Source: an uncultured Pseudomonadota bacterium | GTDB lineage: Bacteria; Oederibacteriota; Muellerivitia; Muellerivitales; Muellerivitaceae | Length of the DNA stretch: 64,000 nt | Assembly (NCBI GenBank): GCA_963843375.1 | Contig: CAWJKT010000011.1 | Span: 192,001 to 256,000, forward strand | Direction: 5' to 3' | Part shown: positions 14,549 to 33,723 of the stretch, in pieces | Layout: each line of letters starts with the position of its first letter | How positions within the stretch are numbered: the stretch's first letter is position 1 | Notes under the pieces: model-generated | Database searches by the model: none | Seen by the model: the letters and a program-made list of their open reading frames with translations, nothing else | What the model was told of the DNA's origin: nothing | Position numbers and translations under genes: made by a program

Positions 14549-14635
14549 TGGCGGAGGGTGCAGGACTCGAACCTGCAAGGGGTTTCCCCCGGTGGATTTC
14601 AAGTCCACTGCCTTACCAATTAGGACTAACCCTCC
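14549..14635 (-). tRNA. tRNA-Ser(TGA), integration target
   Basis: Minus strand GGAGGGT...GTGGA CT TGA AA TCCAC, variable arm, GGTTCGAGTCC, ends ACCCTCCGCCA. Confidence 0.95.
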
Positions 14636-14636
14636 A
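14596..14636. repeat. att site (left copy, inside the intact tRNA)
   Basis: ATTTCAAGTCCACTGCCTTACCAATTAGGACTAACCCTCCA, identical to 33514-33554. Confidence 0.95.
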
Positions 14637-14671
14637 TCTCCATTAAAACCTACGAAAACCGCGCCTCCAAA

Positions 14672-15775
14672 CTACACACCGGCCATTTTGTTTTCCGGAA
14701 ATCGCTTCTTTGTCATAACCGTGTCATTGAACTGTCTGACACGCCTCAAGGCCTCTTTGCGGTCCTCCCGGTCGATCCTATCGTACCGGCGGAACACCGC
14801 GTGGGTCTTGTGGCCCGAAATGGACATAATGGTCGAGTCGCTTACTCCTGCCTTCCTGAAGTTCGTAACCGCGCAGTGCCGCAGATCATGGAAATGAAAG
14901 TCCGAGATATTAGCACGCTGGCACGCCCTGAGGAAAGCCGTTTTTGGATCTTTCAACCCGTGGCCCCGGAAGTTGAAGACGTAAGGACTGCCCAAAACCT
15001 TGGGCGTCCTCCTGAGAAGGTCGATTAAACCCTCGTCCAGGGGGATTTCCCGCGCTTCCTGGGTCTTCGTGTCCTCGGACTTCAAGGTGATGACGCCTTC
15101 CTTCAAGTCCACCTGGTCCCACTTGAGCCCCGTAATCTCGCCCCGCCTCATGCCGGTGAAATAAGCCAACTGCACGACGGGCCGGTAATGGGGAGAGCAG
15201 TTCTCCAAAAGCCTAAGGTATTCCTCCGGGGTCAGCGTCCGGTTCCGGCAATTTTCCCGGAACATCCTGACGCCATCCACAGGATTCCGGTCGATCTTCC
15301 TGTCCAGCACCGCCCTGCGGGCGATGGTTTTCAGGCAGGCAATCTCCCGGTTCAGGGAAGCGTTTTTCAAACTCTTTCCCTGTTCCTCGGCTTTCTTCCT
15401 CCGCTCCTTCAAAAAATCCTCGACCATGCTGGGGGTCAGGCTTGCCAGGGGCCGCCCTCCGAAATAGACCTTCAAGGCCTTCACGGAGAAAAAATCCCTT
15501 CGGTAGCTCTTCTTCCGGGACTCCGAAAAGGCCAGGAACGCGTCCGCCGCCTCGTCGAAAGTCACCTGTGGTTTCTCGCTGGGCAGGAACTCTCCCGCCA
15601 CGATTTCCTTGGTATGCTCGGCCAAAATCCTCTTGGCCTGGGCCGCCGGAATCTCGCCCAACCTCACCCTTTTGCGCTTCCTCAATCCTCCTTCCATAAT
15701 GAAGTAATCCAGGAAATACCCCTTCGCATCCTTGCGGAGATGTTGGGGCAACCCGTGAACATTAGGCTTGCTCAT
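14672..15775 (-). CDS. Tyrosine recombinase / phage-type integrase
   Basis: TGMRRGEI, HDLRH and SGHKT...Y catalytic motifs; ends 36 bp from the tRNA 5' end. Confidence 0.96.
   Translation of the reverse strand: MSKPNVHGLPQHLRKDAKGYFLDYFIMEGGLRKRKRVRLGEIPAAQAKRILAEHTKEIVAGEFLPSEKPQVTFDEAADAFLAFSESRKKSYRRDFFSVKALKVYFGGRPLASLTPSMVEDFLKERRKKAEEQGKSLKNASLNREIACLKTIARRAVLDRKIDRNPVDGVRMFRENCRNRTLTPEEYLRLLENCSPHYRPVVQLAYFTGMRRGEITGLKWDQVDLKEGVITLKSEDTKTQEAREIPLDEGLIDLLRRTPKVLGSPYVFNFRGHGLKDPKTAFLRACQRANISDFHFHDLRHCAVTNFRKAGVSDSTIMSISGHKTHAVFRRYDRIDREDRKEALRRVRQFNDTVMTKKRFPENKMAGV
14711..14728. repeat. Putative integrase arm-type site
   Basis: TGTCATAACCGTGTCATT; identical copy at 33341-33358 and inverted 17/18 copy at 33179-33196. 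Confidence 0.7.
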
Positions 15776-16029
15776 AACTGCCTCCTAATGTTGCTCTCAG
15801 CACTGGACATTGTATCAGCCGACAATGCCCCTTGGGAAAGGGGGTTTCTGAAAAGCCTCTCAAACTCCGAGTACCAAACCCTCGGATATTTGCCCATTCG
15901 TACGAAGGGCAAGACGCCGGTCTGTCGCCAATAACGGACGGTATTGACCGATACCTGGGCTTTCTCGGCCACCTCCTGGTCGGTCATTAAATGGTTCCGC
16001 CTTTCGCCGTTCTTCCTGCGCTCCGTCAT
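15772..16029 (-). CDS. Excisionase-like helix-turn-helix protein
   Basis: LMTDQEVAEKAQVSVNTVRYWRQTG.LP; stop overlaps the integrase start (ATGA). Confidence 0.8.
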   Translation of the reverse strand: MTERRKNGERRNHLMTDQEVAEKAQVSVNTVRYWRQTGVLPFVRMGKYPRVWYSEFERLFRNPLSQGALSADTMSSAESNIRRQL

Positions 16030-16412
16030 GGTTTACCTCCGCTTATAAGGTTTAAAAAATAACAGGCCCCAAAGGGGCCACCTTCGGGGAAAGGTGTGGA
16101 AAACCCCGCGTCCAAAACCTGTTTCATTACCAACAGGTGATTCGGGGGGTTTTCCACGGTGTTGGTTTTGCCGTTGCCTTTGACTTTGCCTTTCACCTTA
16201 ATCCTTAAATCCTTTAATCCTTCTTCCTTCGCGCCCGCGCCCACGGGGGTTCGATGGGTCAAGAGGCCAGACCCCACTACCGGTTTCCTGGTCATCATTA
16301 CTGATCCAGGGGGAGTGGGGTCTGGCGTCGCAGGCCAAGCGAACCCCCGTCTTTTGCGGGCGTTTCCATGTTTTTCCGCCATAAGCTGTTTATGGTTCCG
16401 GTTACGGTTCAT
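16026..16412 (-). CDS. Hypothetical basic protein overlapping a palindrome-rich tract (may be non-coding)
   Basis: ATG 16412 overlaps the relaxase stop and the stop overlaps the xis start, but the composition is low-complexity. Confidence 0.35.
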   Translation of the reverse strand: MNRNRNHKQLMAEKHGNARKRRGFAWPATPDPTPPGSVMMTRKPVVGSGLLTHRTPVGAGAKEEGLKDLRIKVKGKVKGNGKTNTVENPPNHLLVMKQVLDAGFSTPFPEGGPFGACYFLNLISGGKP

Positions 16413-17278
16413 GACGCCACCTCGCTTGGCTTTTCCCCGGCGGGGGCCGTCCTCAGGATGGGATCCTTCACGAAGGGAAGGTATTCCCATTCCAGGTTCA
16501 CCCAAGGCACCCGCCTAAAAGGCAGGCTTGCCGCCTTCTCGAAAAAGGTAAAAGCCCAAAGGGTCCGGTTCCGGGGGTCGTGTTTCAGGAAGGTCGAAAG
16601 CCCCTGCACCAGCCTTACGGCCTGGGCCTTGTTCTGGCTGACGATCAACCGGCAGGCCCCCGGGAAGTCCCGGTCCAGGTTCAGGACCAAGGCCGTCATT
16701 TGGTCCCGGTTGTAGGGGGAGTGTTCGTATTCCAGGACGAAGGCGTAACGTTGGCCTTCCAGAGCGGCCTGAAAGTACCCGTCCGGGGTCCGGCGGTTCA
16801 GCCTTTGAAGCTTGGTCCCGGCCAAGTCCCATCCCCGCCCTTCCTCCAAGGCCTTCTTCCACGACATCTTGAGGCCACACCGCATCTCGTAGTCGGAAAG
16901 CCAAACCAAGTCCTCCAAGGCCTTGTCCTCCTCCCAATGGATTCGCATTTGAAGCACCCGCTTGTCGTGCTCCCTCTCAAAGGGGTTGATATGGGGGGAG
17001 CGGATTTCCTTGGAGGTTAGGATTCGGGCAAGATCCGATAGGCTCTTCAAGGCGGGCCGGGACAGGTAATAGAAGGTGTCGTCGTTCGGGAGGTTTTGGG
17101 TTTTGAGGAGCCATCCCCGGCTGACCAAGCCCCGCAGGTGGACACAGGCGGTCGTATAGCATTGGGCAGGGTGGAACTTCCGGTGAAAGAGCCGGGTGGT
17201 GATGAACTTGTTGGAATGGGTGTAAGCCAGGATGTCCAGGTCCCTCGGTTCGAGGGCGGTCTCAGGCCGCATTTTCAT
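16409..17278 (-). CDS. Replication-relaxation (Replic_Relax-like) relaxase
   Basis: N-terminal wHTH-like RD..IL.......FIT; PDG.F...F.LEYE PD-(D/E)xK-like core; overlaps the T4CP gene. Confidence 0.7.
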   Translation of the reverse strand: MKMRPETALEPRDLDILAYTHSNKFITTRLFHRKFHPAQCYTTACVHLRGLVSRGWLLKTQNLPNDDTFYYLSRPALKSLSDLARILTSKEIRSPHINPFEREHDKRVLQMRIHWEEDKALEDLVWLSDYEMRCGLKMSWKKALEEGRGWDLAGTKLQRLNRRTPDGYFQAALEGQRYAFVLEYEHSPYNRDQMTALVLNLDRDFPGACRLIVSQNKAQAVRLVQGLSTFLKHDPRNRTLWAFTFFEKAASLPFRRVPWVNLEWEYLPFVKDPILRTAPAGEKPSEVAS

Positions 17279-19058
17279 CCCCCATGGGGCTTCCAGGGTT
17301 CTTGGGGCCCGGTTCCGGGCCGCCGCCGCTTTCTCCTACCAGCTCGGGGATTGAGCTTTCATTGGTTCCATTGCGCCGGGGCCGGTGGGCTACCCCGTTT
17401 TGGGTCGTAAAGTAGTCCCAAGGCGGGTCCGCCGGCCGCAGGGAGGTTTGGAAGACCTTGACGCCCGATTCGCCCACTACCTTGACGATGGCCTGGCCCA
17501 CCTTGAGTTCCTTGATGCGGTTGGGGTGGAAACGGAACTTCTCCACCGGAGGCTTGGAATAGCCGATCACATCCCCATTCGTCCCAAAGCTCTCCACCCG
17601 GTAATCCGGGTCCCGTTCGGTCCCGAATTGCCGGGCGAAGCCCTCCGCCGTGTCCGGGTCGTTCACCCGCAGGATGATCTTGTTGCTGGCCGTGTTCATC
17701 ACCTGTTCCAGGAATTCCTGGGAGACGCCCCTCAGGTCGCCCATGGACTGGTGGGCCAAGAAGAGGTTCACCTGGGCTTCCCGGCACTTGTTGATGAAGT
17801 CGATGAACTTGGGATAAGCCAGGTTGTAGAACTCGTCCAGGAAGACCCTAAAGGGCTTCTCCGGGACGGCCCGGTAGCGGTCGGCCAACTGCTCGGCCAG
17901 GTCCATCATGGCGAGGATGCAAAGGGGCTTGGCGTCCTCCGGGTAACGGGCGTAGTCCGGGGAGAAGAGGAAGATTTGCCCGTACCGGACGACCTCCGAC
18001 ATCTTGATATCGGGCTCCCGGACATTGAGCAGGTGGGACCACTCGCTGTTGCAGAACCTTTGGAGTTTGTTGATGAGCCCCGAAAGCTCCATGCGGCGGT
18101 CCTTGGGGGATTTGGAAAGCCACTGGTCGCGGAAATACCGGGCGTAATGGGTGTTGGGGTATTTCGCGCAAAACCAGGCGATGGTCCTAAAGGTTTCCAC
18201 TTCCTGGGTGGCCGTCAATAGGTCTTGGAAGGTGATGGTCTTGATCGCCAGTTTCAAAAGGCCGATCAGGTTGTGGAGGAAAACCTCGGCCAAATCCCGG
18301 TAGTAAGGTTCGGCGTTGTGCGAATCGTAATAGAGCGCGGCGAAAGCCCGGTTGGCAATGGCGTCCGGGTTGTCCCCGTAAAGGGAGTTGTAGGTGTGGG
18401 ACTTGAGGATGTCCACCAAGTTGAAATGGCGGACGAACCGGCCTGGGGCCTTAAAGGCGTAATAGGCCACATCCCGGAGCATGTTGGATTTGACGTCCAG
18501 GATGAAGCAACCCAAATCCTGCCGGATGGTTTGTTCGATGAAAGGCTTGATGACGAAATGGGTTTTCCCGGTGCCGGTCCCGCCGACGATCTGGACATTT
18601 TCGTGCAATGAGGCAGTAGGAATACCGACTTCTCCATAAGGGTCCAACACCAACGGGAATTTCCCATAGCTGGTTTTGGTTTTCTTGGTCGGCTTCCAAT
18701 AGAGGCCCCACATAGCCCCTCCGGTCAACAGAACCACTAGGAGAAGCCAGGGAAGGTTATAGGCGGGGAAAAATGGATTTAAAAAGGAAACCGCCGCCGA
18801 ATTGCAAACCGCCAGCTTGGTAGGGAGGAAGAGGTTGTTATTGTTCCGGTAAAGAAAGAGAACGGCGTAGGGGACAAGGAACAGCCACATCCACCAACCC
18901 CAAAAGTGATGGTTGGTGAAATCCGCGTCCGGAGTTGAACTCCCGATAAAATCCAGTGTCCAAAAAGGCATGGTGATATTGGCGAGGACAAGGATGTGAG
19001 GCATGAAGCTGGGATAAAAAATACACTTGTTCTGGTTATCTTGCGCTGATTCCGACAC
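17262..19058 (-). CDS. Type IV coupling protein (VirD4/TraD-like)
   Basis: N-terminal TM helices, Walker A IVGGTGTGKT, Walker B FLDEF, AHQS..DL and R.NDPDTAE. Confidence 0.88.
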   Translation of the reverse strand: MSESAQDNQNKCIFYPSFMPHILVLANITMPFWTLDFIGSSTPDADFTNHHFWGWWMWLFLVPYAVLFLYRNNNNLFLPTKLAVCNSAAVSFLNPFFPAYNLPWLLLVVLLTGGAMWGLYWKPTKKTKTSYGKFPLVLDPYGEVGIPTASLHENVQIVGGTGTGKTHFVIKPFIEQTIRQDLGCFILDVKSNMLRDVAYYAFKAPGRFVRHFNLVDILKSHTYNSLYGDNPDAIANRAFAALYYDSHNAEPYYRDLAEVFLHNLIGLLKLAIKTITFQDLLTATQEVETFRTIAWFCAKYPNTHYARYFRDQWLSKSPKDRRMELSGLINKLQRFCNSEWSHLLNVREPDIKMSEVVRYGQIFLFSPDYARYPEDAKPLCILAMMDLAEQLADRYRAVPEKPFRVFLDEFYNLAYPKFIDFINKCREAQVNLFLAHQSMGDLRGVSQEFLEQVMNTASNKIILRVNDPDTAEGFARQFGTERDPDYRVESFGTNGDVIGYSKPPVEKFRFHPNRIKELKVGQAIVKVVGESGVKVFQTSLRPADPPWDYFTTQNGVAHRPRRNGTNESSIPELVGESGGGPEPGPKNPGSPMGDENAA

Positions 19059-19118
19059 ACCGCACCTGGCTTTCCGGAGACCGCCTCCGAGAATAAGCCT
19101 TGCGGTTTTGCGCCGGGC

Positions 19119-19361
19119 TTATTGCTTGGGCGGTTCTCTTTTTGGATCGGATACCCGTCTCTTCCCCGGAGGGAAAAAATAGGCTCTGAGGGCGGCTCTT
19201 AAAACGTCCGCCCTTTTAGTCTTTGGCTTTTTTACCTGTTCTGCTTTCGTCTTTTCGTTTATGGCTTCCAATAATTCAGAGGTAACGTGAAGCATGAGTC
19301 TTATCCCGCCTTCTCCTTCGAGTATTGGACGCCCACGGCCTTGTTTCTTTTTCATGGTCAT
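19119..19361 (-). CDS. Ribbon-helix-helix (CopG-like) protein
   Basis: RGRP, beta strand RLMLHV, helices ending RADVLRAALRAY; GAGGA RBS; first gene of the mobilisation run. Confidence 0.6.
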   Translation of the reverse strand: MTMKKKQGRGRPILEGEGGIRLMLHVTSELLEAINEKTKAEQVKKPKTKRADVLRAALRAYFFPPGKRRVSDPKREPPKQ

Positions 19362-19525
19362 ATCTATATTCCTCTTCGAAAAAATCGTCAATTTTAATCA
19401 ACAGATTAAAGTGTGACGTTTATTCTAAAAGACATTATTTGGAATTTGGAAATTAATTGGGTTTAAAAGGCGGGGTTAATTAAAAGGCATACTTTAAAAA
19501 AATAATTTTTTTAAATAAATAAAAA

Positions 19526-20257
19526 TTAAGGTTTATAACTTTTTTGGATAACATCCTTTAGTTGTTGAATGGTCAACCAAGGTTTTTTTCTGTGTATCAT
19601 TCGATGACAGTTAGCGCAAACGATAGAAAGGTCGTCGATTTTTGGTTTTTGTTCCGATTTCAATTCAGATAAGGGAATGACATGGTGGCACTCTGCGAAG
19701 TATTTTCCTAAGTCTCCATATTTGTCTTCAAATACAAATGTACATACTTCGCATTCCAGTTTTCCACGTTTTTTAATTACGAAGCTTTTTTTCTTTTCTA
19801 CGTTTTCAGGTTTCCGTTCACGATATGAATGTATCCTTGTTAAAATCCTGCCTTCTGGTGCAGTATCCAGTTCTTCTAAGTCTGAAGGTGTTTCAACCTC
19901 CGGATTATCGGGTTTAGCAATGGAGTTTTTTATTGCAACGGCGGTTTTGTTAAGTTCTTCTGGTTTGTCCGAAAATTCCTTCCAGACATCTTTTTCAAGT
20001 TTACTTCCAGCAGTTAGACCCTTGCCTTCGTAAGTTGGGTCATACTTTAAAAAATTACACAACTTCATATAAACACCATTTGGGTTACGGTATTTTTCAT
20101 CGCGAGTGTTAAATTCTTGAAATGGCATCCGATTTAATATTTGACTCAACTCGGTAATCTTGGGATTATTTTTAGAAAAACTTTTCCACTTTTTTTCGGT
20201 AAAATAAAAATCAAGGGCCAGAATTAATTCGTCTCGCGACCAATTAGGATTACTCAC
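19526..20257 (-). CDS. HNH endonuclease, McrA-like
   Basis: WSRDELILALD.Y N-terminal domain; EG...H..RER, CEVC, ECHH..PL and VCANCHRMIH. Confidence 0.8.
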   Translation of the reverse strand: MSNPNWSRDELILALDFYFTEKKWKSFSKNNPKITELSQILNRMPFQEFNTRDEKYRNPNGVYMKLCNFLKYDPTYEGKGLTAGSKLEKDVWKEFSDKPEELNKTAVAIKNSIAKPDNPEVETPSDLEELDTAPEGRILTRIHSYRERKPENVEKKKSFVIKKRGKLECEVCTFVFEDKYGDLGKYFAECHHVIPLSELKSEQKPKIDDLSIVCANCHRMIHRKKPWLTIQQLKDVIQKSYKP

Positions 20258-20273
20258 AAAGTTCTTCTTTCAA

Positions 20274-20663
20274 TCAGAAGATTCCGATTTTCTTTTTAAC
20301 CGCTCCGGGGTTTTTTACAATTTGACATTCCCAAAGGGTAAGCACCCTCCAGCCTTTTTTACGGAGCAACCGTTTTGTTCTCATATCCCTTTTAACATTA
20401 TTTTCAAGTTTTGGTTTCCAGTAGCTAAGTTTTGTTTTTGGCATTCTTCCGTCTTTACAACCCTTATGTTGATGCCAAAAACAACCATGAACGAAAATAA
20501 TCATCTTCTGTGAATCAATGACAAAATCGGGTTTGCCAGGAAGTGCCTTAAGGTTCATTACAAATTTAACCCCTGCGTTTTTTAAAATTTTTTTAACGCT
20601 TCTTTCTGGAAACATACCCTTGGATTTTATGCGTCTCATATTTTCACTTCTGCTAATCAACAT
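20274..20663 (-). CDS. vsr: Very short patch repair endonuclease
   Basis: RS.NM..IKSK, LPGKPD, FVHGCFWHQH, N..RD and GWRVL..WEC. Confidence 0.92.
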   Translation of the reverse strand: MLISRSENMRRIKSKGMFPERSVKKILKNAGVKFVMNLKALPGKPDFVIDSQKMIIFVHGCFWHQHKGCKDGRMPKTKLSYWKPKLENNVKRDMRTKRLLRKKGWRVLTLWECQIVKNPGAVKKKIGIF

Positions 20664-21333
20664 AAACCTCCGATTTTAAACCACAATTAACAGCTTCCCA
20701 AAGGTATCTGCTGGCAAGTGTTCTATGAGGCTTCCATTTCAATCCGATTTTCATGACTTGATCTGGCGTGGGCTTCTTTTTTAAAGAGTAGGCAATTTGA
20801 ATACCGCGTTGTAAGCCAATATCAAAACAGGGTAAAACATCCGGTCTTTGCATGTGGAAAATTAAATACATCTCGGCCGTCCATCTTCCGATTCCATTTA
20901 TTCTTTGTAATTCTTCTAAAACAATATTATCAGGCTTGGAATTCAGTTCTTTAAGATTCAATTTTCTTTCTTTTACTGCTTTACATAGATCACGTAAAAA
21001 ACCAATTTTTTGTTTTGATATCCCAATTTTTCTTAGGACTCTAAATGGGGTCCTCAATACTTTGTTTGCTGTTGGATTTTTTCGGGAATATAAAGCGGCA
21101 AAACGTGAAAAGATAGTCCTTGCAGCAGCGCTACTTAATTGTTGCCCAATAATAGCTCTCAATAAAGCTTGCAATGCCGGACGAGGTACTGAACTGATTA
21201 ATGAAAGTTTATTATTTTGAATTGCCTTAACACGCTTAATTAATTTCCCAAGTTTGGGGTCTCTTTTTGATAAATGTTTTTCACCGATTCTTTTCAAAAT
21301 TATTTCCTGTCTAAGAATGTTCGGAATGGCCAT
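20653..21333 (-). CDS. DNA-3-methyladenine glycosylase II family (AlkA-like, HhH-GPD)
   Basis: AIIGQQLS, GIGRWTAEMYLIF...RPDVLP..D and W.P.R..A..YLW. Confidence 0.88.
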   Translation of the reverse strand: MAIPNILRQEIILKRIGEKHLSKRDPKLGKLIKRVKAIQNNKLSLISSVPRPALQALLRAIIGQQLSSAAARTIFSRFAALYSRKNPTANKVLRTPFRVLRKIGISKQKIGFLRDLCKAVKERKLNLKELNSKPDNIVLEELQRINGIGRWTAEMYLIFHMQRPDVLPCFDIGLQRGIQIAYSLKKKPTPDQVMKIGLKWKPHRTLASRYLWEAVNCGLKSEVYVD

Positions 21334-21435
21334 CAATTATCAAAACACCTGTTACAAAACAGGGCAACATATACACCCTAACAATACCATGTTAAACTTT
21401 CGCAATCACAGATTCCGTTCTAAAGGCATTTTTTA

Positions 21436-22095
21436 ATGACATTTAACGAATACAAAAAAATGCTTCCGAAAAACTTAAGCATCGTTAAAGAGAAAATTCT
21501 TAAACGTCTTTGGGAAGAGGGAGATAAATTTCCTAAAGGATGGGTTAAAAGTTCCGAATTGCTTTCGATTACAAAGCAAAAGTACTTTGACAGAAGAACT
21601 CGCGAATTGCGGGATGAAATGGGTTGCGATATCGAAACAAAGATTATTGAGGCCGAACACAGCTATCGATTAAATTCCCCAAAAATAAACATATCTAATC
21701 CACGACATTATTTACCAAATAATCAAAAAGAAATCCTATTTGAAAAAAATAATTTCACCTGTTCAGTTTGTGGAAAAAAATACAAAAAAGAAGAAAAAGG
21801 ACTCCAATCTGATCATAAGATTCCATTAATGCGTGGCGGAACCAACGAAGAAAGCAACTGGCAACCACTCTGTGTGGAATGCAACGTAATTAAAAGAAGG
21901 GCTTGCGCTGGTTGTAAATTGGATTGTAAAACTTGTTCCTGGGCTTTTCCTGAAAAAATCTCTGCAAGGACACTTATACAGTTGCCCCCTAAACTTAATC
22001 AGTATTTATATGAACATTGTAAAAACGAAAACCAAACTTTAAGTGAATTTGTAGCTGAGGCTATTGAACAATATAAAACTAAGAACGAAGATTAA
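21436..22095 (+). CDS. HNH endonuclease (KpnI-like type II REase candidate) with possible C-terminal RHH domain
   Basis: RRTRELRDEMG, CSVC, DHKIP..GG....N...LC..CN..K, extra CxxCxxxCxxC; convergent with the C5 MTase. Confidence 0.7.
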   Translation: MTFNEYKKMLPKNLSIVKEKILKRLWEEGDKFPKGWVKSSELLSITKQKYFDRRTRELRDEMGCDIETKIIEAEHSYRLNSPKINISNPRHYLPNNQKEILFEKNNFTCSVCGKKYKKEEKGLQSDHKIPLMRGGTNEESNWQPLCVECNVIKRRACAGCKLDCKTCSWAFPEKISARTLIQLPPKLNQYLYEHCKNENQTLSEFVAEAIEQYKTKNED

Positions 22096-22128
22096 AAATC
22101 CGAACAAATTCAATTCTCAAATTTGTTT

Positions 22129-26519: not shown

Positions 26520-27313
26520 TGAACAAGAAATATAACGATGCTGAAAAAGCGGAAATTGTTTCCCAGTTCATCGACCAAATGAACTTGTCTGGCTCTGCTT
26601 CAATTGAGATTTTTCTAGAAGAGTACCCTGAGCTTTCAAATGAGCTCGAACCTCTTTTAGGACTTTCATTGGATTTGAAAAAAGACTTTCAAAAAACGTA
26701 TTTGGCAAATGAAGAGGTTGAGAAGAAATTTTTAAAATTTTATGAAAAGCCGACCGCGAACCGGAATCAGGTTGTTGCGGTTGCCTTAGATCAGCGTCCC
26801 GATTTTATGTTGCTCTTACTTAAGATGATGGATGGCGTAAAAGGTGTTACTAGGTTAACGAAATTGTTGTTTTTGATGGGGAAAGAAGCCCGTTTCGATC
26901 AATACGTTAACAATTACTACGCCCATGCCGCCGATAATTTTGGACCGTTTGATGATGTTATTTTCCAAGATATCGAAGCCCTCAAGAAAGTCGGTTTCAT
27001 AACAGAAGAGAATCTTGTTTTAAAAAGCGACGATGAGGATTCGAAATACGAAGGCCAACTTTATCCAAATAAAGTGCAAAAGAATTATGAACTGACTGAT
27101 AGCGGCAAAAAATTCACGGAAGAACTATTCAAAAAGGTTGAGCAGACAAGGCCAGAAGTCATCAACGATCTAAAAAAGATAATTAGTAAATATGGGAAGC
27201 TGTCTTTAAAGAGTCTTTTGACCCGTGTTTATACAGATTATCCGGAATACACAGTCAAATCGAAAATAAAAGACCAAATATTGGGGAATAAGAAAGATGA
27301 AAAAAAGAATTAA
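26519..27313 (+). CDS. Fusion of anti-sigma-like N-terminus and SocA/YwgA (Panacea)-like winged-helix domain
   Basis: N-term FLEEYPELSNELEPLL; C-term G.TRL.KLLFL...FGPF...I..D...L...Y.LT..G...LL..VY..YPE. Confidence 0.55.
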   Translation: MNKKYNDAEKAEIVSQFIDQMNLSGSASIEIFLEEYPELSNELEPLLGLSLDLKKDFQKTYLANEEVEKKFLKFYEKPTANRNQVVAVALDQRPDFMLLLLKMMDGVKGVTRLTKLLFLMGKEARFDQYVNNYYAHAADNFGPFDDVIFQDIEALKKVGFITEENLVLKSDDEDSKYEGQLYPNKVQKNYELTDSGKKFTEELFKKVEQTRPEVINDLKKIISKYGKLSLKSLLTRVYTDYPEYTVKSKIKDQILGNKKDEKKN

Positions 27314-27731
27314 GGAAAGACAACTTTTGAAACCGGTGTGTCGGTTGTTTCCGAAACTTGTTCCTGTCACTGAGTTCCCGTTCAAAGGGAAGCTTATTGA
27401 TGTCTTGTTTATTAAAAGGAAAACAGGAAAAGGAAATTTAATAGCTATCGAATTGAAAATAAAAAAGTGGAAAAAGGCAATGCGGCAGGCTGCGGTATAT
27501 CAGTTGTTCGCGCATAAGGTTTACATAGCGCTCCCCAACGATCGATTAAACGACAGGGTGTTGGAAACTGTTACGAACCAAGGGATAGGAGTTATATCGA
27601 TCGACTTAGAAAAGAAATTACTGAAAGCCAAAATTGTGAGAAGACCAAAGCCCACAAACTTCTTAAACAAAAAGTACACAGAAGAAGTCTTGGATTTAAT
27701 TAAGAAATCCAAATATGTGGGGGTCGGATGA
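27297..27731 (+). CDS. Small PD-(D/E)xK nuclease-fold protein
   Basis: E...IDVL...IAIELK..W..A..QA..Y...A..VYIA...GIGVI. Confidence 0.65.
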   Translation: MKKRIKERQLLKPVCRLFPKLVPVTEFPFKGKLIDVLFIKRKTGKGNLIAIELKIKKWKKAMRQAAVYQLFAHKVYIALPNDRLNDRVLETVTNQGIGVISIDLEKKLLKAKIVRRPKPTNFLNKKYTEEVLDLIKKSKYVGVG

Positions 27732-29029
27732 AATTTCCAGCCAAACAGCCCATCGTTTATATTCGGCCTCGTCAGACCGATAAACAATTATTGGAAGATC
27801 CAAGGATTATTGGGCATTACCAGGGAATCCACATGCCGGCAACAGCTCCAGATGGAGTCAGAGAAATGATCCGTAATCTTGGCAAGCCAACCTTTATTGA
27901 TCCTGATACGTATTTTTACTCCTTGCCGCTTAAACGTTTATTTGCGGAAGAGAAAAAAACATTCAAACCAAGTATCGGAAGGTTGTTTGGGGAATATCAA
28001 AGCATCGGGGACGTTAGTGTTACCTCATCCCGTACGATTCCCGGAAATCCGTCCGAGATTCAGTTCTTTGTAAGGCGAGTCTTGGAATTTCAAAATAGCC
28101 GTTTGAACGGCCAAACAACTTTGGTGAATGCAAATTATTCCAAATATGCCGATTGGCAAAAAAGCTATGGAGAAGTTGTTAATTACGAGACCTCGACATC
28201 TGAACCAGAATTCCTAATACCGCCTTATTTTTACTTTGATAAACATGACAATGAAAAATACAAGTTGTCATTGGCATGCGCAAAAGCTGCCCTTCGTTCG
28301 AGACCAACGGGAAGTTCCATTTACCCGGTTATCTTTTTCTCAAAAGTCTTGCTTAAGAAGGGAGATGTAATACAAAAAATTGTTGATGACTATCTTGGAT
28401 TATCCGCGGACGGATTCATCCTTTGGATTAATGATTTCAAAGAAGAAAAAGAGCCGTTAGAAACTCTACTTGGGCTTTCTGCTTTAGTTAAGAATATTTC
28501 AGGGTCCAGAAAGCCGGTCCTGAAGTTGTTTGGCGGATATTTTTCACTTTTGCTTTCTCTAAATGGATTGACTGGTTTTTCATGTGGGTTGGGCTATGGG
28601 CAATCGAAAAATGCTTTCGCTTATGGTGCGAAGATGCGCGGGAAGTTTGAACCGAAGTATTACATCCAAGCTTTACATCGGGGTGTGGAGTTACCTGATG
28701 CCGAAAGATTAATACGATCTATTCCAGAATTGAGATGCTCCTGTGTTGTTTGCCAAAAGACTTTCGGTAGGAATTTTGACAATTTTTCAAAGATGAGCGA
28801 AGCCGGTATGTGCGAATGCCATTTTCTAAATGCGCGGCGACAGGAAATTAAAGAAATCATGGAAAAAGGCAAAGACTATATCTCCAGCTCAATCAAATTG
28901 ACAGCGAACTCATTCCAAATGAATTCATTAGTTGATGTTCGTGCTTTGAAAAATTGGGCCATGGTTTTGGATGAAATGGATCAAGCGGCAGGATCAAAAG
29001 TAATTAATATAAAAAGGTCCGGGGGGTGA
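27728..29029 (+). CDS. TGT-like TIM-barrel protein with CxCxxC-x22-H zinc motif, function unknown
   Basis: FIDP, YPVI, GYFSLLL...G..GFS.G.GYG and CSCVVC(22 aa)H. Confidence 0.55.
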   Translation: MKFPAKQPIVYIRPRQTDKQLLEDPRIIGHYQGIHMPATAPDGVREMIRNLGKPTFIDPDTYFYSLPLKRLFAEEKKTFKPSIGRLFGEYQSIGDVSVTSSRTIPGNPSEIQFFVRRVLEFQNSRLNGQTTLVNANYSKYADWQKSYGEVVNYETSTSEPEFLIPPYFYFDKHDNEKYKLSLACAKAALRSRPTGSSIYPVIFFSKVLLKKGDVIQKIVDDYLGLSADGFILWINDFKEEKEPLETLLGLSALVKNISGSRKPVLKLFGGYFSLLLSLNGLTGFSCGLGYGQSKNAFAYGAKMRGKFEPKYYIQALHRGVELPDAERLIRSIPELRCSCVVCQKTFGRNFDNFSKMSEAGMCECHFLNARRQEIKEIMEKGKDYISSSIKLTANSFQMNSLVDVRALKNWAMVLDEMDQAAGSKVINIKRSGG

Positions 29030-29034
29030 TATCA

Positions 29035-29166
29035 GTGGCAAATTTTTTAGCTTTCAGGCCAAAAACTAAAACTAAAAGACCTGTCGAGTTCAAAACATCG
29101 AACGGTCAAAAAGTCCAATTCAATGCGAAGAGAAAACCGTTGAGAAGGACTAGGGTGAAGTTTTAA
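29035..29166 (+). CDS. 43-aa highly basic peptide (below ORF-track cutoff)
   Basis: GGGGGTGAT RBS, GTG start, MANFLAFRPKTKTKRPVEFKTSNGQKVQFNAKRKPLRRTRVKF, TAA at 29164-29166. Confidence 0.5.
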   Translation: MANFLAFRPKTKTKRPVEFKTSNGQKVQFNAKRKPLRRTRVKF

Positions 29167-29218
29167 GAGGCAGGTTATTAATAAAAACCCGCTCTCCAAA
29201 AGTTGAAAGGAGTAAGCC

Positions 29219-29428
29219 ATGGGAAGGTTTCATTACAATCCGAAAGGATATCCCGTCTGGAATGACAGTGGAAAATTGGTTCATAGAACTGTGGCCAAAC
29301 CCAAAGGGAATCAAGTCACCCATCATATCGATGGGAATCCCAAGAACTTCAGAAGAGACAATCTGGTCAATATGAGCCCAAGTGAACATGCGAAACTTCA
29401 TGCGAGAGAAAGAAGGCGGCCTATGTGA
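29219..29428 (+). CDS. Minimal HNH (HNH_3-like) protein
   Basis: VHR.VA...HHIDGN..N...NL......EH..LH; AAGGAG RBS. Confidence 0.7.
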   Translation: MGRFHYNPKGYPVWNDSGKLVHRTVAKPKGNQVTHHIDGNPKNFRRDNLVNMSPSEHAKLHARERRRPM

Positions 29429-29529
29429 AGGCCTAGAAAGGGTTTGGGGCAAGGCCCCAGGAGAAGGGGGTGTGCCGAGGATCGGCAAAGCCAGCCGAGG
29501 CCAGGGGGAAGGCTTTCCCCCCAAAGAAA

Positions 29530-31158
29530 TTATTTTTTAGGATAAAGATTTCTAATTATTTTTGGGATATTTACTTGAGCTAGATATGTTTCGCAAAACT
29601 CAGCCGCTCTCGGATTCTCTTTTAAAACGTCTCTGGTGAATAAAATCAGTGATTCTTCCTTCAAATTACGAACCAAATCCGCGAAAACTTCACCTACATG
29701 CCAACGATTATGGGATAAAGCAAGTATGGGCAGGCGTTTTAATATTAGAAAATGGATTTCATTATCTGTGGTCCAGTTGAATATTTTTTTGTAAAGGTTG
29801 GCGATTACATCACAGTAATCAAACCCGACCTCATCGATGTAAGAATCGTAAGATTTTAAAACCTGTTTAAATATCGTTGGTTGTTTTTCAATCATACATT
29901 TAAAAATTGGTTCTGGAATTTTTGGAAATATTTGAATCATTGCATCGGAGTTATCTGTAACGTCCAAAATTGACTTAGCAAAATCTTCGATTTCTTTGTT
30001 AGATATACGCTCTTTGTCTTTGAGTTCTCTCGCAGTTTTCAAAATACTCTCTGCGGATTTTTCAAACTCGAAACCGTCTCCGAGTAGTAAATTTAAATCT
30101 TTTAAAAACACTTGAACACTTTGGTATCTCTGCTTCGGGTCACTGTGAGTTGCTTTATTAATTAAATAGAAAAATTTTCTTGGGATTAAATCAAAATCCA
30201 AAGTGGGGTATGGACTTTTACCAGAAAGTATTTGATACAGAAGTTTTCCTAAGGAATAAATATCAGCAGGTTCTCTGGCGCTTTTGGCGTCTTCCCATTG
30301 TTCAGGGGCGACGTATCCTATTGTTCCAATAGGAAAATTAGAAAGTGTTACGGAGGGAGAATCTCGATCAATAAATTTCCCTAAACCGAAATCCGAAATA
30401 GTCGGGAAAAGACCTTTGCCTTCCTGATTTGGAAAAAGCAATACGTTTAATGGTTTCAAATCCCTGTGAATAACGCCTTTGGAATGGGCAAATGAAACGC
30501 CCTCAGCTATTTGTAAAAAAAGAGGAATTTGTTTTTCTCCGTGGTTCTTTTTTAAATATTCCTCTAAGTTAAAGTATGCTTTTGGCATTACAAACCAGGG
30601 AAGTGAAGCTTCAAGGTCCATATCTAAAATGGGAACAATATTTTTGTGCTTTAATTGGGATTGAATTCTTACCTCTCTTTTAAATCGCCTAACATCTTCC
30701 TCTTCGTGATCCTCTTTTAAAAACTTCATTGCGTAAATAGTTCCGTCTTTTCCAACAGCTTCATATACTTCACCAAAGCCACCATTGCCAATTAAGCTCT
30801 TCAAGGAATATAGATTTCTTTTTGGGCTTGAGGGTTTTTGGGATTCTTTTTCTTTGTCCGAGTAGTTCTTCTGAACAACAAATTCGACTGAAACAACTTC
30901 TGGTTCATGATCTTGAAGAGGATATATGCCACGCACCATTTCAAGAATTAGTTTTTGGTCCTCAACGCTAATTTTTTTTGTTTTAACGTAATCTTTTGGA
31001 GGAAGGTAAATGATGAAATCTGAGATTAAGGAAAATAACCGGCTTCCATATTGGTTTGATACCCGTAATTCGCTTGAGGCATCTTCAAAGATTTCCGATA
31101 AATCTTCACGGCCTTCCGCGTTCAAAAGATCAATAAGAGTTTTTATATCTTCATCCAT
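29530..31158 (-). CDS. Hanks-type Ser/Thr protein kinase with extra N- and C-terminal domains
   Basis: GNGGFGEV, AMK, HRDLKPLN, DFG and GT.GY.APEQ; no TM segment. Confidence 0.92.
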   Translation of the reverse strand: MDEDIKTLIDLLNAEGREDLSEIFEDASSELRVSNQYGSRLFSLISDFIIYLPPKDYVKTKKISVEDQKLILEMVRGIYPLQDHEPEVVSVEFVVQKNYSDKEKESQKPSSPKRNLYSLKSLIGNGGFGEVYEAVGKDGTIYAMKFLKEDHEEEDVRRFKREVRIQSQLKHKNIVPILDMDLEASLPWFVMPKAYFNLEEYLKKNHGEKQIPLFLQIAEGVSFAHSKGVIHRDLKPLNVLLFPNQEGKGLFPTISDFGLGKFIDRDSPSVTLSNFPIGTIGYVAPEQWEDAKSAREPADIYSLGKLLYQILSGKSPYPTLDFDLIPRKFFYLINKATHSDPKQRYQSVQVFLKDLNLLLGDGFEFEKSAESILKTARELKDKERISNKEIEDFAKSILDVTDNSDAMIQIFPKIPEPIFKCMIEKQPTIFKQVLKSYDSYIDEVGFDYCDVIANLYKKIFNWTTDNEIHFLILKRLPILALSHNRWHVGEVFADLVRNLKEESLILFTRDVLKENPRAAEFCETYLAQVNIPKIIRNLYPKK

Positions 31159-31185
31159 AATTTTCTCTTTTTTATGAAAGGAGTT

Positions 31186-32100
31186 TTACAGGTCTAATAC
31201 TTTCCTTAAACGGGTGGATTGTTCTTGTCGCTTCTTAGCGGTCATTCGGCGGATATTTTCAAGCTTCCACCGCAAACCCGGCAATCGCTCGATGTCAGGC
31301 AAGCCTAAGAGGTTCCAATCTGGTTCTCCATCCTTGAGAGACAGCAAAAACTTCTTTTCCGAAACGGTCAAGCTTTTATGGATAAGGCGAAGTAATTCAT
31401 CCCTGGTTTCCACCAAATGTTTTAGGTCAATGGGTTCAAGGGTCATCCCTTTGAATTCTTTTTCAAAGGTGGGCTTCATGTCCTTCAATTTAGGCTTAAG
31501 CAGTTCATTCATGGGTCTGTCGTGGCTTGCTAGGTAAATAACAAACGCCCGACGGATTTCATCAGTCAATCCCTCGTTCTCCAATAGAAGTTTAATATCA
31601 AAAAAATCTCTTGGGTGTTGGCGGTCCAGGGCCGCGCAAATTTTTCCGCCGTAAAGATCGGCCAAAGATAAGAGCCGCGCGGATACCGAAAGCTCAAACA
31701 TTTCCTCGGCCTTATGGCAAAGGGTGGCTTGGACAGGGGGATAAATGGTCCCTCTTAGAACTAAGTTAGGCTCAACCTTAATCGTGGCTTCTTGGTGCCG
31801 GACGGTTAGTTTTACCGTGTGGTCGGTGCCTTTTAGTCGTTGTTCTTCGACTTGTGCACCCAAGACCCGTCTGACCTGGGTGGCGACTTCCTTGAGCGAC
31901 TTTGAAATATCAGCCAGGGCTTCTTCCCTGGTATTCAGCGGAAGATAGGTAAGGTCGATATCAACCGAAAGCCTCGGCATATCCCGGACGAAAAGATTGA
32001 TGGCCGTGCCGCCCTTTAAGGCAAAGTGGCCTGACTTTTCAACGTAGGGTAATACCTGTAAAAGAAGCTTCGCTTGCTTGAAGTAACCCGTGTCTTTCAT
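31186..32100 (-). CDS. AbiEii/AbiGii nucleotidyltransferase toxin (type IV TA)
   Basis: LKGGTAINLF...PRLSVDIDL and GKICAALDRQHPRD.FD. Confidence 0.92.
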   Translation of the reverse strand: MKDTGYFKQAKLLLQVLPYVEKSGHFALKGGTAINLFVRDMPRLSVDIDLTYLPLNTREEALADISKSLKEVATQVRRVLGAQVEEQRLKGTDHTVKLTVRHQEATIKVEPNLVLRGTIYPPVQATLCHKAEEMFELSVSARLLSLADLYGGKICAALDRQHPRDFFDIKLLLENEGLTDEIRRAFVIYLASHDRPMNELLKPKLKDMKPTFEKEFKGMTLEPIDLKHLVETRDELLRLIHKSLTVSEKKFLLSLKDGEPDWNLLGLPDIERLPGLRWKLENIRRMTAKKRQEQSTRLRKVLDL

Positions 32101-32882
32101 GTGGCACTCACAAGGGATTTGGCGGGAACGGTGATTTTGTATTTGGGGTCGAACGTGCCGCCCGGCACCACAACCCTTTTGCCTTTCCCTAAGTCCACTT
32201 TTGAAAGGTTAAGACGTTGGAACCAAGAGTGGTTGCTTGCTCGGCCATATAAAGGAAACACCGCTTCACTTTGACGGATTGGCAGGCTTTTAAGAGGGTC
32301 GTCACCAAGTCCGGCCTTAAAGTGGAAAGGCCTTCCATCAAATGGGCCGCGCCTTCAAAAGTTGTTTGTTGGGGCATTAACAGCAGGGTTTCGAGCATGG
32401 CCCTTTCGGGGGAGGAGAGGGTTATACCGGCTTGCTCGTCCTCGGTAAAACCGAATTCCTTTTTGTAGGGGAGAAAATCCGTTGTTTGGTATTGGATCTT
32501 ATTGGCCCAATTAAATTTGAGAAACCAGGAGGGTGGTTTTACCCCTTGGGGGCCAAAGAGATAGACGGGACGGTATGGAATTCATGGGAGCGGTATGGCC
32601 GTAACCATGCCACCGCAAGGCGGTTTCACCCCCGGCATGGATAGGGAGGTTAAGCTGTTGTTGGAGGGTGTAGAGGCCACCCGGCCAAAGGGGCTTAACC
32701 CCTCCTTCGGTTTTGTAAAAGGCTCCGCCACCGGCTGACTTTAGCCAACCGCCTTTTACATATTCCCGGGCTAAAAACCGACTAACGCCTTTTTGGGTTA
32801 GCCACTTTTGAGTGACCATGCCACCATGGCGGGGCCATTCGGTGAGAATTTGGTTTATTTTGCTTTTGTTTTGTGTAGTCAT
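32097..32882 (-). CDS. AbiEi-family antitoxin, interrupted by two apparent frameshifts
   Basis: K.N.....WP...GGETAL..HG (32511..32882); then SSPERAMLE...GLSTLRP...SVKVKR; then DLGKGKR...G..D.KY.ITVP ending in an ATGA overlap with abiEii. Confidence 0.8.
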
Positions 32883-33378
32883 ACTGCACATATTAGCATA
32901 ATATTAAACTTTTGACGGACTTTGGTTTATTTAAGCCTTAAAATGTGAGGTTAATATACACAAAATAGAATATTTCTAAACCATTTTCCTATTTTGTGTC
33001 ATTTTCTTGATTAGGAAAATAGCTGTTTTTAGGAAAGTTATCAAACCTTTAAAAAATGGTGACCACGGAACAACTAGGCTTTGTAAGAAAAACTACTATG
33101 TTTTTCTTACATGAAAACCAGTCGAAAAAAGAAGAAAGGCATTTCACAAACAGTCCACGGGCTACTTCTAACTCATTGAATGACACCGTTATGACAAGGG
33201 AAGAATTTTAATTGTGGTTTAAGGGTCAGACTCCGACCACAAGAGCACATCGACACCCCCGAAAATAAGGCTTTAAAAGTTCAGTGGACTTTTTGTCCAG
33301 TGGGCTTGTGTACAAGTCAAAATTGCCAAAGCCTTTAGAGTGTCATAACCGTGTCATTCATGACCATCATTTCGAGGT

Positions 33379-33412
33379 CTTGACCGTCAGGTGGGGAACT
33401 TGACCGTCAGGT
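33379..33412. repeat. 14-bp direct repeat pair with 20-bp period near the right att site
   Basis: CTTGACCGTCAGGT at 33379-33392 and 33399-33412. Confidence 0.8.
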
Positions 33413-33414
33413 AC

Positions 33415-33458
33415 AAAAAAAGCCCTTGCCGTAAGGTCATTACTGGCAAAGGCTTTTA
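33415..33458 (-). terminator. Hairpin plus T-run on the minus strand, just inside the element
   Basis: Minus strand AAAAGCCTTTGCCAGTAA tgacc TTACGGCAAGGGCTTTTTT. Confidence 0.55.
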
Positions 33459-33513
33459 AAACGCGCTGAGAGCAACGAAATTTTTTGGAAAATGTCGGGA
33501 GTGCCCGGACCAA

Positions 33514-33554
33514 ATTTCAAGTCCACTGCCTTACCAATTAGGACTAACCCTCCA
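33514..33554. repeat. att site (right copy; displaced 5' half of tRNA-Ser(TGA))
   Basis: 41/41 match to 14596-14636; identity ends just past the anticodon loop. Confidence 0.95.
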
Positions 33555-33723
33555 ACCGGCCCAATTGTACCTTTTTTCCGCCAGCCAAGTCAGGGGGCCA
33601 TATTGTACCCAAATTTCCAGGAGGAACAACCAATTTGACATTAAAGCTCTGTTTAACAATGGAAAAGGGTTTGGGCCAAAGTTCCCTAAAGAGGGGACAG
33701 GCAGGGGTACCAAAATTAACCCG

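What the first reader, a model, noticed from the sequence alone, without database searches (positions are those of the whole stretch)
14549..33600. Element integrates by replacing the 5' half of tRNA-Ser(TGA), separating the tRNA from its native promoter
Seen: the 41-bp repeat covers the tRNA 5' end through the anticodon loop, and the element lies upstream of the intact gene. Known: most tRNA-targeting bacterial integrases restore the 3' part and leave the promoter in place. Seen: a likely native promoter (minus strand CTGACT-18-TACAAT, about 33564-33593, with a GC-rich discriminator) now precedes only the tRNA fragment, with a terminator at 33415-33458. A candidate replacement promoter (TTGGAG-17-TTTAAT, about 14642-14670) sits between the integrase stop and the tRNA. 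Inference: host tRNA-Ser expression now depends on the element.
Basis: partly seen in the sequence, partly recalled or inferred. Interest (0 to 1): 0.75.

Follow-up and report, generated by a model that had tools for sequence, protein, structure and literature searches.

The report
Backwards-inserted mobile island at serine tRNA
A 19-kb mobile island entered a serine tRNA gene of an uncultured soil bacterium the rare "backwards" way, leaving the gene's own promoter stranded on a half-gene; this layout is real but already catalogued, and how the rebuilt tRNA is now switched on remains unproven.

Summary
Observation confirmed. An exact 41-bp direct repeat (14596-14636, 33514-33554) is T plus nt 1-40 of tRNA-Ser(TGA). 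It brackets an 18.9-kb island with a tyrosine integrase, Xis-like HTH, coupling protein and defence cargo. The island lies upstream of the intact tRNA.

Four island-free relatives have the conserved ~80-nt upstream block, with two promoter-like boxes, directly on the intact tRNA. In the window that block precedes only the fragment, which is followed by a strong terminator hairpin. Sister islands sit in the same site with the same polarity in 5 of 5 relatives checked and 7 of 8 close database loci.

The layout is a known minority class: Islander lists 159 of 3919 islands with a 5' fragment, and Zhao & Williams 2002 is cited as the prototype. This scan has noted it before on other DNA.

The proposed replacement promoter (TTGGAG-17-TTTAAT) is weak. 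It has no A at position 2 of the -10, is not listed by the scan tool, and is kept in similar form only in the nearest relative.

The only promoter-like element conserved across the integrase clade is an extended -10 (TGnTAmAAT) about 34 nt before the integrase start. My leading but untested model is read-through from the integrase promoter into the tRNA.

In this genome, six paralogous integrases use three att layouts, three of them reversed.

Verdict: a new member of a known kind, of moderate-low interest.

The parts
14549..14635 (-). Rebuilt, intact tRNA-Ser(TGA). By the flanks, nt 1-40 are island-derived and nt 41-87 host-derived.
   Evidence: 100% identical to the tRNA of island-free relatives
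14346..14437 (-). tRNA-Ser(GCT), 111 nt downstream. This pairing is conserved in relatives with and without an island.
14596..14636 (-). att repeat copy on the integrase side (T plus tRNA nt 1-40)
14642..14670 (-). It is weak and poorly conserved.
14672..15775 (-). Tyrosine integrase, 367 aa, reading towards the tRNA
14711..14728 (-). 18-mer AATGACACGGTTATGACA inside the integrase 3' coding end. It is repeated at the far end of the island and is a candidate arm-type site (inference).
   Evidence: 3 matches, 0 expected by chance
15809..15838 (-). Promoter-like TTCCCA-18-TG-A-TACAAT, whose -10 ends 33 nt before the integrase ATG. Its extended -10 and the leader that follows are conserved across paralogous islands.
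15772..16029 (-). Xis-like HTH_17/MerR protein whose stop overlaps the integrase start
16026..19391 (-). Conserved backbone: orf159, orf289, VirD4/TraD-like coupling protein (17262-19058), orf90
19526..32891 (.). Variable cargo: two HNH proteins, Vsr, HhH-GPD, C5 methylase, GmrSD, RadC, ECF sigma, Ser/Thr kinase, AbiEii, and AbiEi split into two ORFs
33179..33411 (-). Far-end repeat block: CCTGACGGTCAAG twice (33411-33399, 33391-33379), the 18-mer at 33341-33358(-), and an inverted copy at 33179-33196(+)
33415..33457 (-). Intrinsic-terminator hairpin with an A-tract before it and U7 after it. It is conserved at the far end of sister and paralogous islands.
33514..33554 (-). Displaced 5' fragment of tRNA-Ser(TGA): the att repeat copy on the host-promoter side
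33564..33593 (-). Native promoter-like box P2, CTGACT-18-TACAAT. Its -10 ends 10 nt before the fragment.
33602..33629 (-). Native promoter-like box P1, TTGTTC-16-TACAAT

Best explanation
This is an 18.9-kb integrative, probably mobilisable, island of an integrase clade found in candidate division FCPU426.

Its attP carries tRNA-Ser(UGA) nt 1-40 next to the 3' end of the integrase gene. Recombination in the anticodon-loop region put the island upstream of the tRNA. The host's two tandem promoters and the original 5' half were pushed 18.9 kb away, where their transcripts stop at the island's far-end terminator. These anatomical points are shown.

The rebuilt tRNA starts 36 nt after the integrase stop codon, with no recognisable terminator between them. 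Bacterial tRNA genes have no internal promoter, so this tRNA must be transcribed from island DNA (inferred).

The most likely source is read-through from the conserved extended -10 promoter about 34 nt upstream of the integrase start codon. A weak spacer promoter may help (inferred; sub-claim about 0.45).

In the excised circle, the same integrase transcript would instead end at the far-end terminator (inferred).
For: - **Repeat and tRNA:**
- **Native attB rebuilt:** the ~80-nt upstream block matches in 9 of 40 relatives searched. It abuts an intact tRNA-Ser(TGA) plus tRNA-Ser(GCT) in 4 of them: G006, G024, G022, G012. P1 and P2 sit at conserved positions in 5 of 5 native sequences.
- **Downstream synteny:** the 178-aa protein and the DUF6062 protein are kept in island-bearing and island-free relatives.
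- **Sister islands:** integrase followed by a co-oriented tRNA-Ser(TGA), plus a separate 40-44-nt 5' fragment, in 5 of 5 genomes checked. The same integrase-to-tRNA arrangement is in 7 of 8 close database loci and 4 of 4 metagenome contigs.
- **Far end:** the fragment followed by the conserved terminator end is seen in G000, G001 and G004, 3 of 3 printed.
- **Terminator fold:**
- **Integrase promoter:** the strict TGnTA[AC]AAT motif is in 12 of 14 aligned islands, followed by a nearly invariant ACATTAGGAGG leader. In the ungapped rows the other two islands carry looser TGnTAnnnT forms (my reading of the letters).
- **Spacer:** no promoter-like site of at least 8/12 with A2 and T6 lies in the last 450 nt before the tRNA in 7 of 9 Ser-TGA islands scanned.
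Against:
- The extended -10 lies inside the Xis-like coding region, so part of its conservation could be due to coding.
- One sister island (G005) has a 6-bp hairpin plus T-run at the integrase stop. That could block read-through there.
- Ser-CGA islands have a palindrome 8 nt before their tRNA.
- Integrase genes are usually expressed at low levels (general knowledge), which may be too little for a tRNA.
- A second, different tRNA-Ser(tga) gene lies on contig C18 of this 80%-complete, 4%-contaminated assembly.
Confidence: 0.85

Rival explanations
1. One reading: a dedicated island promoter in the 36-nt spacer (TTGGAG-17-TTTAAT, 14670-14642) drives the tRNA. Transcription would start at or next to tRNA +1.
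For: The string is present. It scores 8 of 12 consensus matches with a 17-nt spacer. The closest relative, L060, has TTGAAA-17-TTAAAT at the same place. The six bases before the tRNA (GGAGAT) are conserved in most sister islands, which suggests some constraint there.
Against: - The A at position 2 of the -10 is missing. By established knowledge of sigma-70 promoters this is one of the most critical bases.
- The scan tool does not list the site.
- Aligned hexamers in other sister islands are TTTCAC, TTTGAC, TTTCAT, TTTAGT and TTTGAG.
- The -10 would end only 6 nt before tRNA +1, leaving almost no leader for RNase P.
Confidence: 0.25
2. The rebuilt tRNA is poorly expressed or silent and is tolerated because another tRNA-Ser(UGA) gene (contig C18:62502-62591) covers UCA decoding.
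For: ARAGORN finds a second tRNA-Ser(tga) of different sequence on C18. An integrase-like ORF lies just upstream of it.
Against: - The C18 tRNA and its flank have no counterpart in the 99%-complete same-genus genome G001. G001 nevertheless carries a sister island in the same site.
- The island-adjacent tRNA is 100% identical to that of island-free relatives in all 6 island-bearing genomes printed, so it shows no decay.
- C18 may be misbinned or mobile DNA, since the assembly has 4% contamination.
Confidence: 0.07
3. Assembly artefact or chance repeat: the two junctions are not real.
For: The genome is a metagenome-assembled draft (32 contigs, 80% complete).
Against: - A 41-nt exact repeat that coincides with a tRNA 5' end is not chance.
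- Both junction types recur in independently assembled genomes and contigs.
- Five runs hold 71-89% of the sampled words of 12500-20500, which spans the integrase-tRNA junction. The best holders may be the source sample.
Confidence: 0.02

Closest known systems
tRNA-gene genomic islands with a displaced 5' tDNA fragment (reversed target orientation). Prototype: Zhao & Williams 2002, J Bacteriol 184:859. Counted in the Islander database.
   Same: A tyrosine integrase lies inside, with an intact tDNA at one end and a co-oriented 5' fragment upstream. The att site is centred on the anticodon loop, and the island must replace the tRNA's upstream region. Islander Table 1 lists 159 islands with a 5' fragment against 3760 with a 3' fragment (passages of PMC4383910). 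Krupovic et al. 2019'-distal recombination 'considerably less frequent' (passages of PMC6563490).
   Different: I could not read the prototype paper. It is not held, and I know it only from citations and recall. Here the integrase stop is only 36 nt from tRNA +1, with no convincing promoter between them. The host is an uncultured candidate phylum. One integrase clade in one genome uses reversed and conventional layouts side by side.
ICEKp1, ICEclc and ICEEc1: state-dependent promoter switching (PMC13023037; abstract read)
   Same: A tRNA gene and an adjacent integrase gene share transcription. The 3' or 5' context of the integrase transcript changes between the integrated and excised states.
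   Different: There the host tRNA promoter drives the integrase (conventional polarity), and this was shown by experiment. Here the proposed direction is the mirror image, with the integrase promoter driving the tRNA, and it is only inferred.
dusA-specific integrases (Farrugia et al. 2015, PMC4482086; passages read)
   Same: The island replaces the 5' end of its target gene with its own sequence. Putative -10/-35 boxes were reported upstream of the rebuilt gene.
   Different: The target there is a protein-coding gene rather than a tRNA, and the integrase family is different.
Integrase-less islands stacked at tRNA-Val in this same genome
   Same: Same genome and the same anticodon-region type of att site. 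I saw 7 displaced fragments of tRNA-Val(cac) on contig C4.
   Different: That stack has conventional 3' fragments, and its integrase is only 30% identical to this one.

Membership tests
tDNA-integrating genomic island (Islander criteria, PMC4383910) | Tyrosine-recombinase integrase gene inside the interval | tested here: met
   PF00589, E 1.8e-26, covering 2-169 of 172 profile positions. The translation shows the motifs GMRRGE, HDLRH, GHKTH and RRY (the motif reading is my own).
tDNA-integrating genomic island (Islander criteria, PMC4383910) | Intact tDNA plus a cognate end fragment in the same orientation, 2-200 kb apart | tested here: met
   tRNA at 14549-14635(-), fragment at 33514-33554(-), spacing 18,918 nt
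Reversed-orientation class (5' tDNA fragment) | The fragment is the 5' end and lies upstream of the intact tDNA | tested here: met
   The fragment is nt 1-40 and lies upstream in tRNA orientation
Reversed-orientation class (5' tDNA fragment) | Island-free relatives join the fragment-side flank directly to the intact tDNA | tested here: met
   G006, G024, G022 and G012
Anticodon-centred att sublocation (Williams 2002 classes; recalled, paper not held) | The identity block ends in or next to the anticodon loop | tested here: met
   The block ends at nt 40, one base past the loop CTTGAAA. The exact crossover point is inferred.
Active integrative element | Excised circle (attP) and empty site (attB) detectable in the same population | not testable with these tools
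Both genomes of this genus that were searched are occupied.
Integrative conjugative or mobilisable element | Relaxase plus coupling protein, with a type IV secretion system for an ICE | tested here: inconclusive
   A VirD4/TraD-like coupling protein is present. No relaxase or secretion genes were recognised. orf159 and orf289 have no Pfam, PHROG or NCBIfam match, and orf289 has no PDB match.
Sigma-70-type promoter in the integrase-tRNA spacer | Two hexamers with at least 9 of 12 matches, A at position 2 and T at position 6 of the -10 | tested here: not met
   Not listed. At a relaxed 8 of 12, none is found in the last 450 nt of 7 of 9 Ser-TGA islands.

The most novel reading that the evidence does not exclude
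In this integrase clade the rebuilt tRNA has no promoter of its own. It is made as the 3' passenger of the integrase mRNA, from a conserved extended -10 promoter. This is the mirror image of the tRNA-to-integrase co-transcription shown for ICEKp1. Host selection for an essential tRNA would then keep the island's integrase promoter switched on. The far-end terminator would change jobs with the state: it ends stranded host-promoter transcripts when the island is integrated, and ends the integrase mRNA when the island is excised.
Probability: 0.35. Interest if true: 0.55.

Novelty: new member of a known kind. Interest (0 to 1): 0.3.

Why it matters
Reversed-polarity tRNA islands are a small, little-studied class. 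Every one of them must solve the same problem, which is how to re-express an often essential tRNA after removing its promoter.

This locus offers a clean natural series for that question. It has a strongly conserved native promoter pair, at least 11 distinct sister islands at one site, and paralogous integrases that use reversed and conventional layouts in the same genome.

If the tRNA rides on the integrase transcript, host selection would directly maintain integrase expression. That bears on island stability and domestication.

On its own, however, the layout is catalogued. This scan has also met it several times on other DNA.

Tried and rejected
- **RNA evidence:** no RNA holder was listed.
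- **Read laying:** I did not resend.
- **Prototype papers:** Zhao & Williams 2002 (PMC139527) and Williams 2002 (PMC100330) are not held. I know them from reference lists and recall.
- **Other literature:** PMC9897764 had nothing relevant. The FCPU426 search gave only ecology papers (listing only).
- **Backbone ORFs:** orf159 and orf289 had no Pfam, PHROG or NCBIfam match, and orf289 had no PDB match.
- **Simple terminator scans**: they found only chance-level 5-7-bp hairpins between the integrase promoter and the tRNA. They also miss the far-end terminator, which served as the positive control, so their negative result is weak.
- **ECF or sigma-54 promoter in the spacer:** rejected by eye only. 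The island's ECF sigma gene has no tblastn match in the G001 or G018 sister islands.
- **Target-site duplication by a transposon:** rejected. The repeat is 41 bp, an integrase is present, and many sister islands share the boundaries.
- **RDD gene as conserved neighbour:** not found within 1.5 kb in any of the 18 relative loci searched.
- **Earlier notes near this place:** none.
Full report
**1. Observation**

ARAGORN finds tRNA-Ser(tga) at 14549-14635(-) and tRNA-Ser(gct) at 14346-14437(-). Rfam confirms both and reports no other known RNA in 13500-35500.

An exact 41-nt direct repeat lies at 14596-14636 and 33514-33554. The whole assembly holds only these two copies.

On the minus strand the repeat is T(-1) plus tRNA nt 1-40. 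It ends one base past the anticodon loop CTTGAAA.

A 367-aa tyrosine integrase (14672-15775, minus; PF00589, E 1.8e-26) reads towards the tRNA and stops 36 nt before tRNA +1.

In tRNA orientation the order is:
- host flank
- conserved upstream block
- 5' fragment
- 18.9-kb island, with the integrase gene last
- intact tRNA-Ser(TGA)
- tRNA-Ser(GCT)

**2. The island**

The backbone next to the integrase holds:
- a Xis-like HTH_17 protein whose stop overlaps the integrase start
- two ORFs with no family match
- a VirD4/TraD-like coupling protein
- a 90-aa ORF

The rest is cargo:
- two HNH proteins
- Vsr
- HhH-GPD
- a C5 methylase
- GmrSD
- RadC
- an ECF sigma factor
- a Ser/Thr kinase
- AbiEii
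- a split AbiEi

GC content falls from 0.53-0.61 in the backbone to 0.33-0.40 in 19-25 kb.

The backbone (integrase, Xis-like protein, orf159, orf289, coupling protein, orf90) and the AbiEi end are shared with the sister islands of G001 and G018. Most cargo is not shared.

No relaxase was recognised. I therefore call it a candidate integrative mobilisable element.

**3. Is the stranded flank the native one?**

I searched 41 genomes (G000 and 40 relatives) with 33555-34900.

- The last ~80 nt before the fragment (33555-33634) matched in 9 relatives at 82-90% identity for the best ones.
- In G006, G024, G022 and G012 this block abuts an intact tRNA-Ser(TGA) followed by tRNA-Ser(GCT).
- The block holds two promoter-like boxes at fixed positions in 5 of 5 native sequences. 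P1 is TTGTyC-16-TACAAT. P2 is CTGAyw-17/18-TAmAAT, with its -10 ending 10-13 nt before tRNA +1.
- Downstream synteny (the 178-aa protein and the DUF6062 protein) is kept with and without an island.
- The RDD gene is not a conserved neighbour. It had no match within 1.5 kb in any of the 18 loci searched. Only the promoter block is native in the strict sense.

The assembly is a draft metagenome-assembled genome. Record titles of close homologues name candidate division FCPU426.

**4. Sister islands**

- All 5 relatives I checked (G001, G002, G004, G005, G018) have an integrase homologue at 74-85% nucleotide identity, followed by the co-oriented tRNA-Ser(TGA). Each also has a separate 40-44-nt copy of the tRNA 5' end elsewhere.
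- G005 has two such copies.
- In G001, of the same genus, the promoter block is followed by the fragment and a clearly related island end.
- Of 8 close database loci (60-88% amino-acid identity), 7 show the same integrase-to-tRNA-Ser(TGA) arrangement, and L034 shows no tRNA. Several of these loci duplicate the G genomes.
- All 4 metagenome contigs hit by the junction pattern show the arrangement.
- Counting distinct spacers, I have about 11 sister islands.
- The tRNA is 100% identical in all sequences printed.

Misassembly is therefore very unlikely, although I could not lay reads.

**5. The far end**

About 55 nt after the fragment lies a hairpin with a 13+4-bp stem, an A-tract before it and U7 after it. 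The 126-nt stretch folded around it has a minimum free energy of -37.6 kcal/mol (z -2.7).

The same end architecture is present in G001 and G004 and in paralogous islands of this genome. It consists of the motif ..CAGCrCrTTTTAAAAGCCTTTGCC.., the hairpin, and then TGACGGTCAAG-type repeats.

The 18-mer AATGACACGGTTATGACA occurs three times, with 0 expected by chance:
- inside the integrase 3' coding end
- at the far end
- once more, inverted

These are candidate arm-type sites (inference).

**6. What drives the rebuilt tRNA?**

- The proposed TTGGAG-17-TTTAAT exists, but the tool does not list it.
- Its -10 lacks A at position 2.
- The aligned hexamers in sister islands are not -10-like. Only L060 keeps a similar TTGAAA-17-TTAAAT.
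- At a relaxed threshold (at least 8 of 12 matches, with A2 and T6), 7 of 9 Ser-TGA islands have no hit in the last 450 nt before the tRNA.
- G002 and G018 have a weak hit in that scan. By eye they also carry TGATAGAAT at the integrase stop.

In contrast, an extended -10 (TGnTA[AC]AAT) about 34 nt before the integrase ATG is present in 12 of 14 aligned islands of the clade. The other two carry looser TGnTAnnnT forms (read by eye from the rows). A nearly invariant ACATTAGGAGG leader follows it.

Between it and the tRNA, my simple scan found only chance-level hairpins. That scan also misses the far-end terminator, so it is not sensitive. G005 has a small hairpin plus T-run at the integrase stop.

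I conclude three things:
- Island-dependent transcription is forced by the anatomy.
- Read-through from the integrase promoter is the best-supported source (about 0.45).
- A weak spacer promoter remains possible (about 0.25).

None of this is shown at the RNA level.

**7. The integrase clade uses several layouts**

A census of the laid genome finds six paralogous integrases, 58-64% identical.

| Target | Location in G000 | Fragment | Layout |
|---|---|---|---|
| Ser-TGA | this island | 5', nt 1-40 | reversed |
| Ser-CGA | C11:49798 | 5', nt 1-41 | reversed |
| Arg-TCG | C8:180499 | 5', nt 1-43 | reversed |
| Asp-GTC | C6 (tRNA 227169-227246) | 3' | conventional; integrase convergent with the intact tRNA |
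| Thr-TGT | C9 | 3' | conventional; integrase co-oriented with the fragment |
| a CAT-anticodon tRNA | C8 | 3' | conventional; integrase co-oriented with the fragment |

In a 24-row tree, the reversed label needs 2 changes. The reversed Ser and Arg islands group with the co-oriented conventional ones (support 91/88; the branches inside that group are unresolved).

Among 12 distant homologues:
- 1 is co-oriented with an intact tRNA
- 6 are convergent with it
- 3 have the tRNA upstream
- 2 show no tRNA

Polarity is thus labile in this family, as expected for a site centred on a symmetric stem-loop. That reasoning is recalled from Williams 2002, which I could not read.

**8. What is known**

- Islander's Table 1 counts 3760 islands with a 3' fragment and 159 with a 5' fragment, out of 3919 (passages).
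- Krupovic et al. 2019 state that 5'-distal recombination is considerably less frequent, and cite Zhao & Williams 2002 (passages).
- dusA islands replace a gene's 5' end and show putative promoters (passages).
- ICEKp1 uses the host tRNA promoter for its integrase gene (abstract).
- Earlier notes of this scan describe the same reversed class on other DNA. They also describe the tRNA-Val stack in this genome, whose 7 fragments I also saw.

**9. Caveat on essentiality**

A second, different tRNA-Ser(tga) sits on contig C18, behind an integrase-like ORF. Neither that tRNA nor its flank matches the 99%-complete same-genus genome G001. It may be mobile or misbinned DNA.

**10. Verdict**

The named replacement promoter is not supported. 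The layout is a new member of a catalogued minority class.

The integrase-promoter read-through idea and the multi-layout integrase clade are the parts worth a follow-up.

Noticed in passing
window 29437-29469, 33664-33696, 34834-34866: A ~33-nt repeat family (AAAGGGTTTGGGGCAAGGCCCC...). Longer matches of the same region (about 60-120 nt) occur many times in relatives' genomes, so it looks like a REP- or MITE-like dispersed element of this family.
   Followed up: no
window 32189-32398 and 32511-32891 (minus): The AbiEi antitoxin next to AbiEii is split into two ORFs (N-terminal and C-terminal domains) with a gap of about 110 nt. It may be a broken gene. Both parts have homologues at the far end of the G001 and G018 sister islands.
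   Followed up: partly
G000 contig C18:62502-62591 (L047 4503-4592): A second tRNA-Ser(tga) of different sequence lies about 35-60 nt after a 516-aa ORF with a tyrosine-recombinase-like C-terminus reading towards it. It has no counterpart in the same-genus genome G001. Its best matches are in other families of the phylum, so it is possibly another upstream-inserted element or a misbinned contig.
   Followed up: partly
L002 1578-1600 (G001) and about 24 nt in G018 C82:54863-54886: An extra stretch of about 23 nt (G001: gggttcgatggactcaccacaag) sits between the native promoter block and the tRNA 5' fragment. It is absent in G000 and G004 and is unexplained. It may be a scar of an earlier integration.
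   Followed up: no
window 14711-14728 versus L017/L018/L019 integrase 3' ends: The repeat embedded in the integrase 3' coding end differs between subclades of sister islands: AATGACACGGTTATGACA-type versus AAGGACTCCAAGGACTCC-type. This is as expected if arm-type binding sites lie inside the coding sequence and co-vary with the integrase.
   Followed up: no
G005 contig C69:11393-11432 and 35577-35616: There are two copies of the tRNA-Ser(TGA) 5' fragment upstream of one integrase-tRNA junction. This suggests a tandem array of reversed-polarity islands.
   Followed up: no
G000 C11:49798-56450 (L052) and C8:171778-180575 (L053): Two further reversed-polarity islands lie in the same genome, at tRNA-Ser(CGA) (about 6.6 kb) and tRNA-Arg(TCG) (about 8.7 kb). 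Each has a paralogous integrase ending 35-46 nt before the rebuilt tRNA.
   Followed up: partly
L052, L055, L056 and L020, between the integrase stop and the att site: A conserved palindrome (AAACCCTTTT-loop-AAAAGGGTTT) lies between the integrase stop and the att site in the Ser-CGA, Thr and CAT islands, but not in the Ser-TGA or Arg-TCG islands. It has only a 3-bp GC core and no free U-tract, so it is probably a protein-binding site rather than a terminator.
   Followed up: no
window 19000-25000: A low-GC (0.33-0.40) block carries a dense set of DNA-modification and restriction genes: two HNH proteins, Vsr, an HhH-GPD glycosylase, a C5 methylase and GmrSD. It is compositionally distinct from the island backbone.
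   Followed up: no
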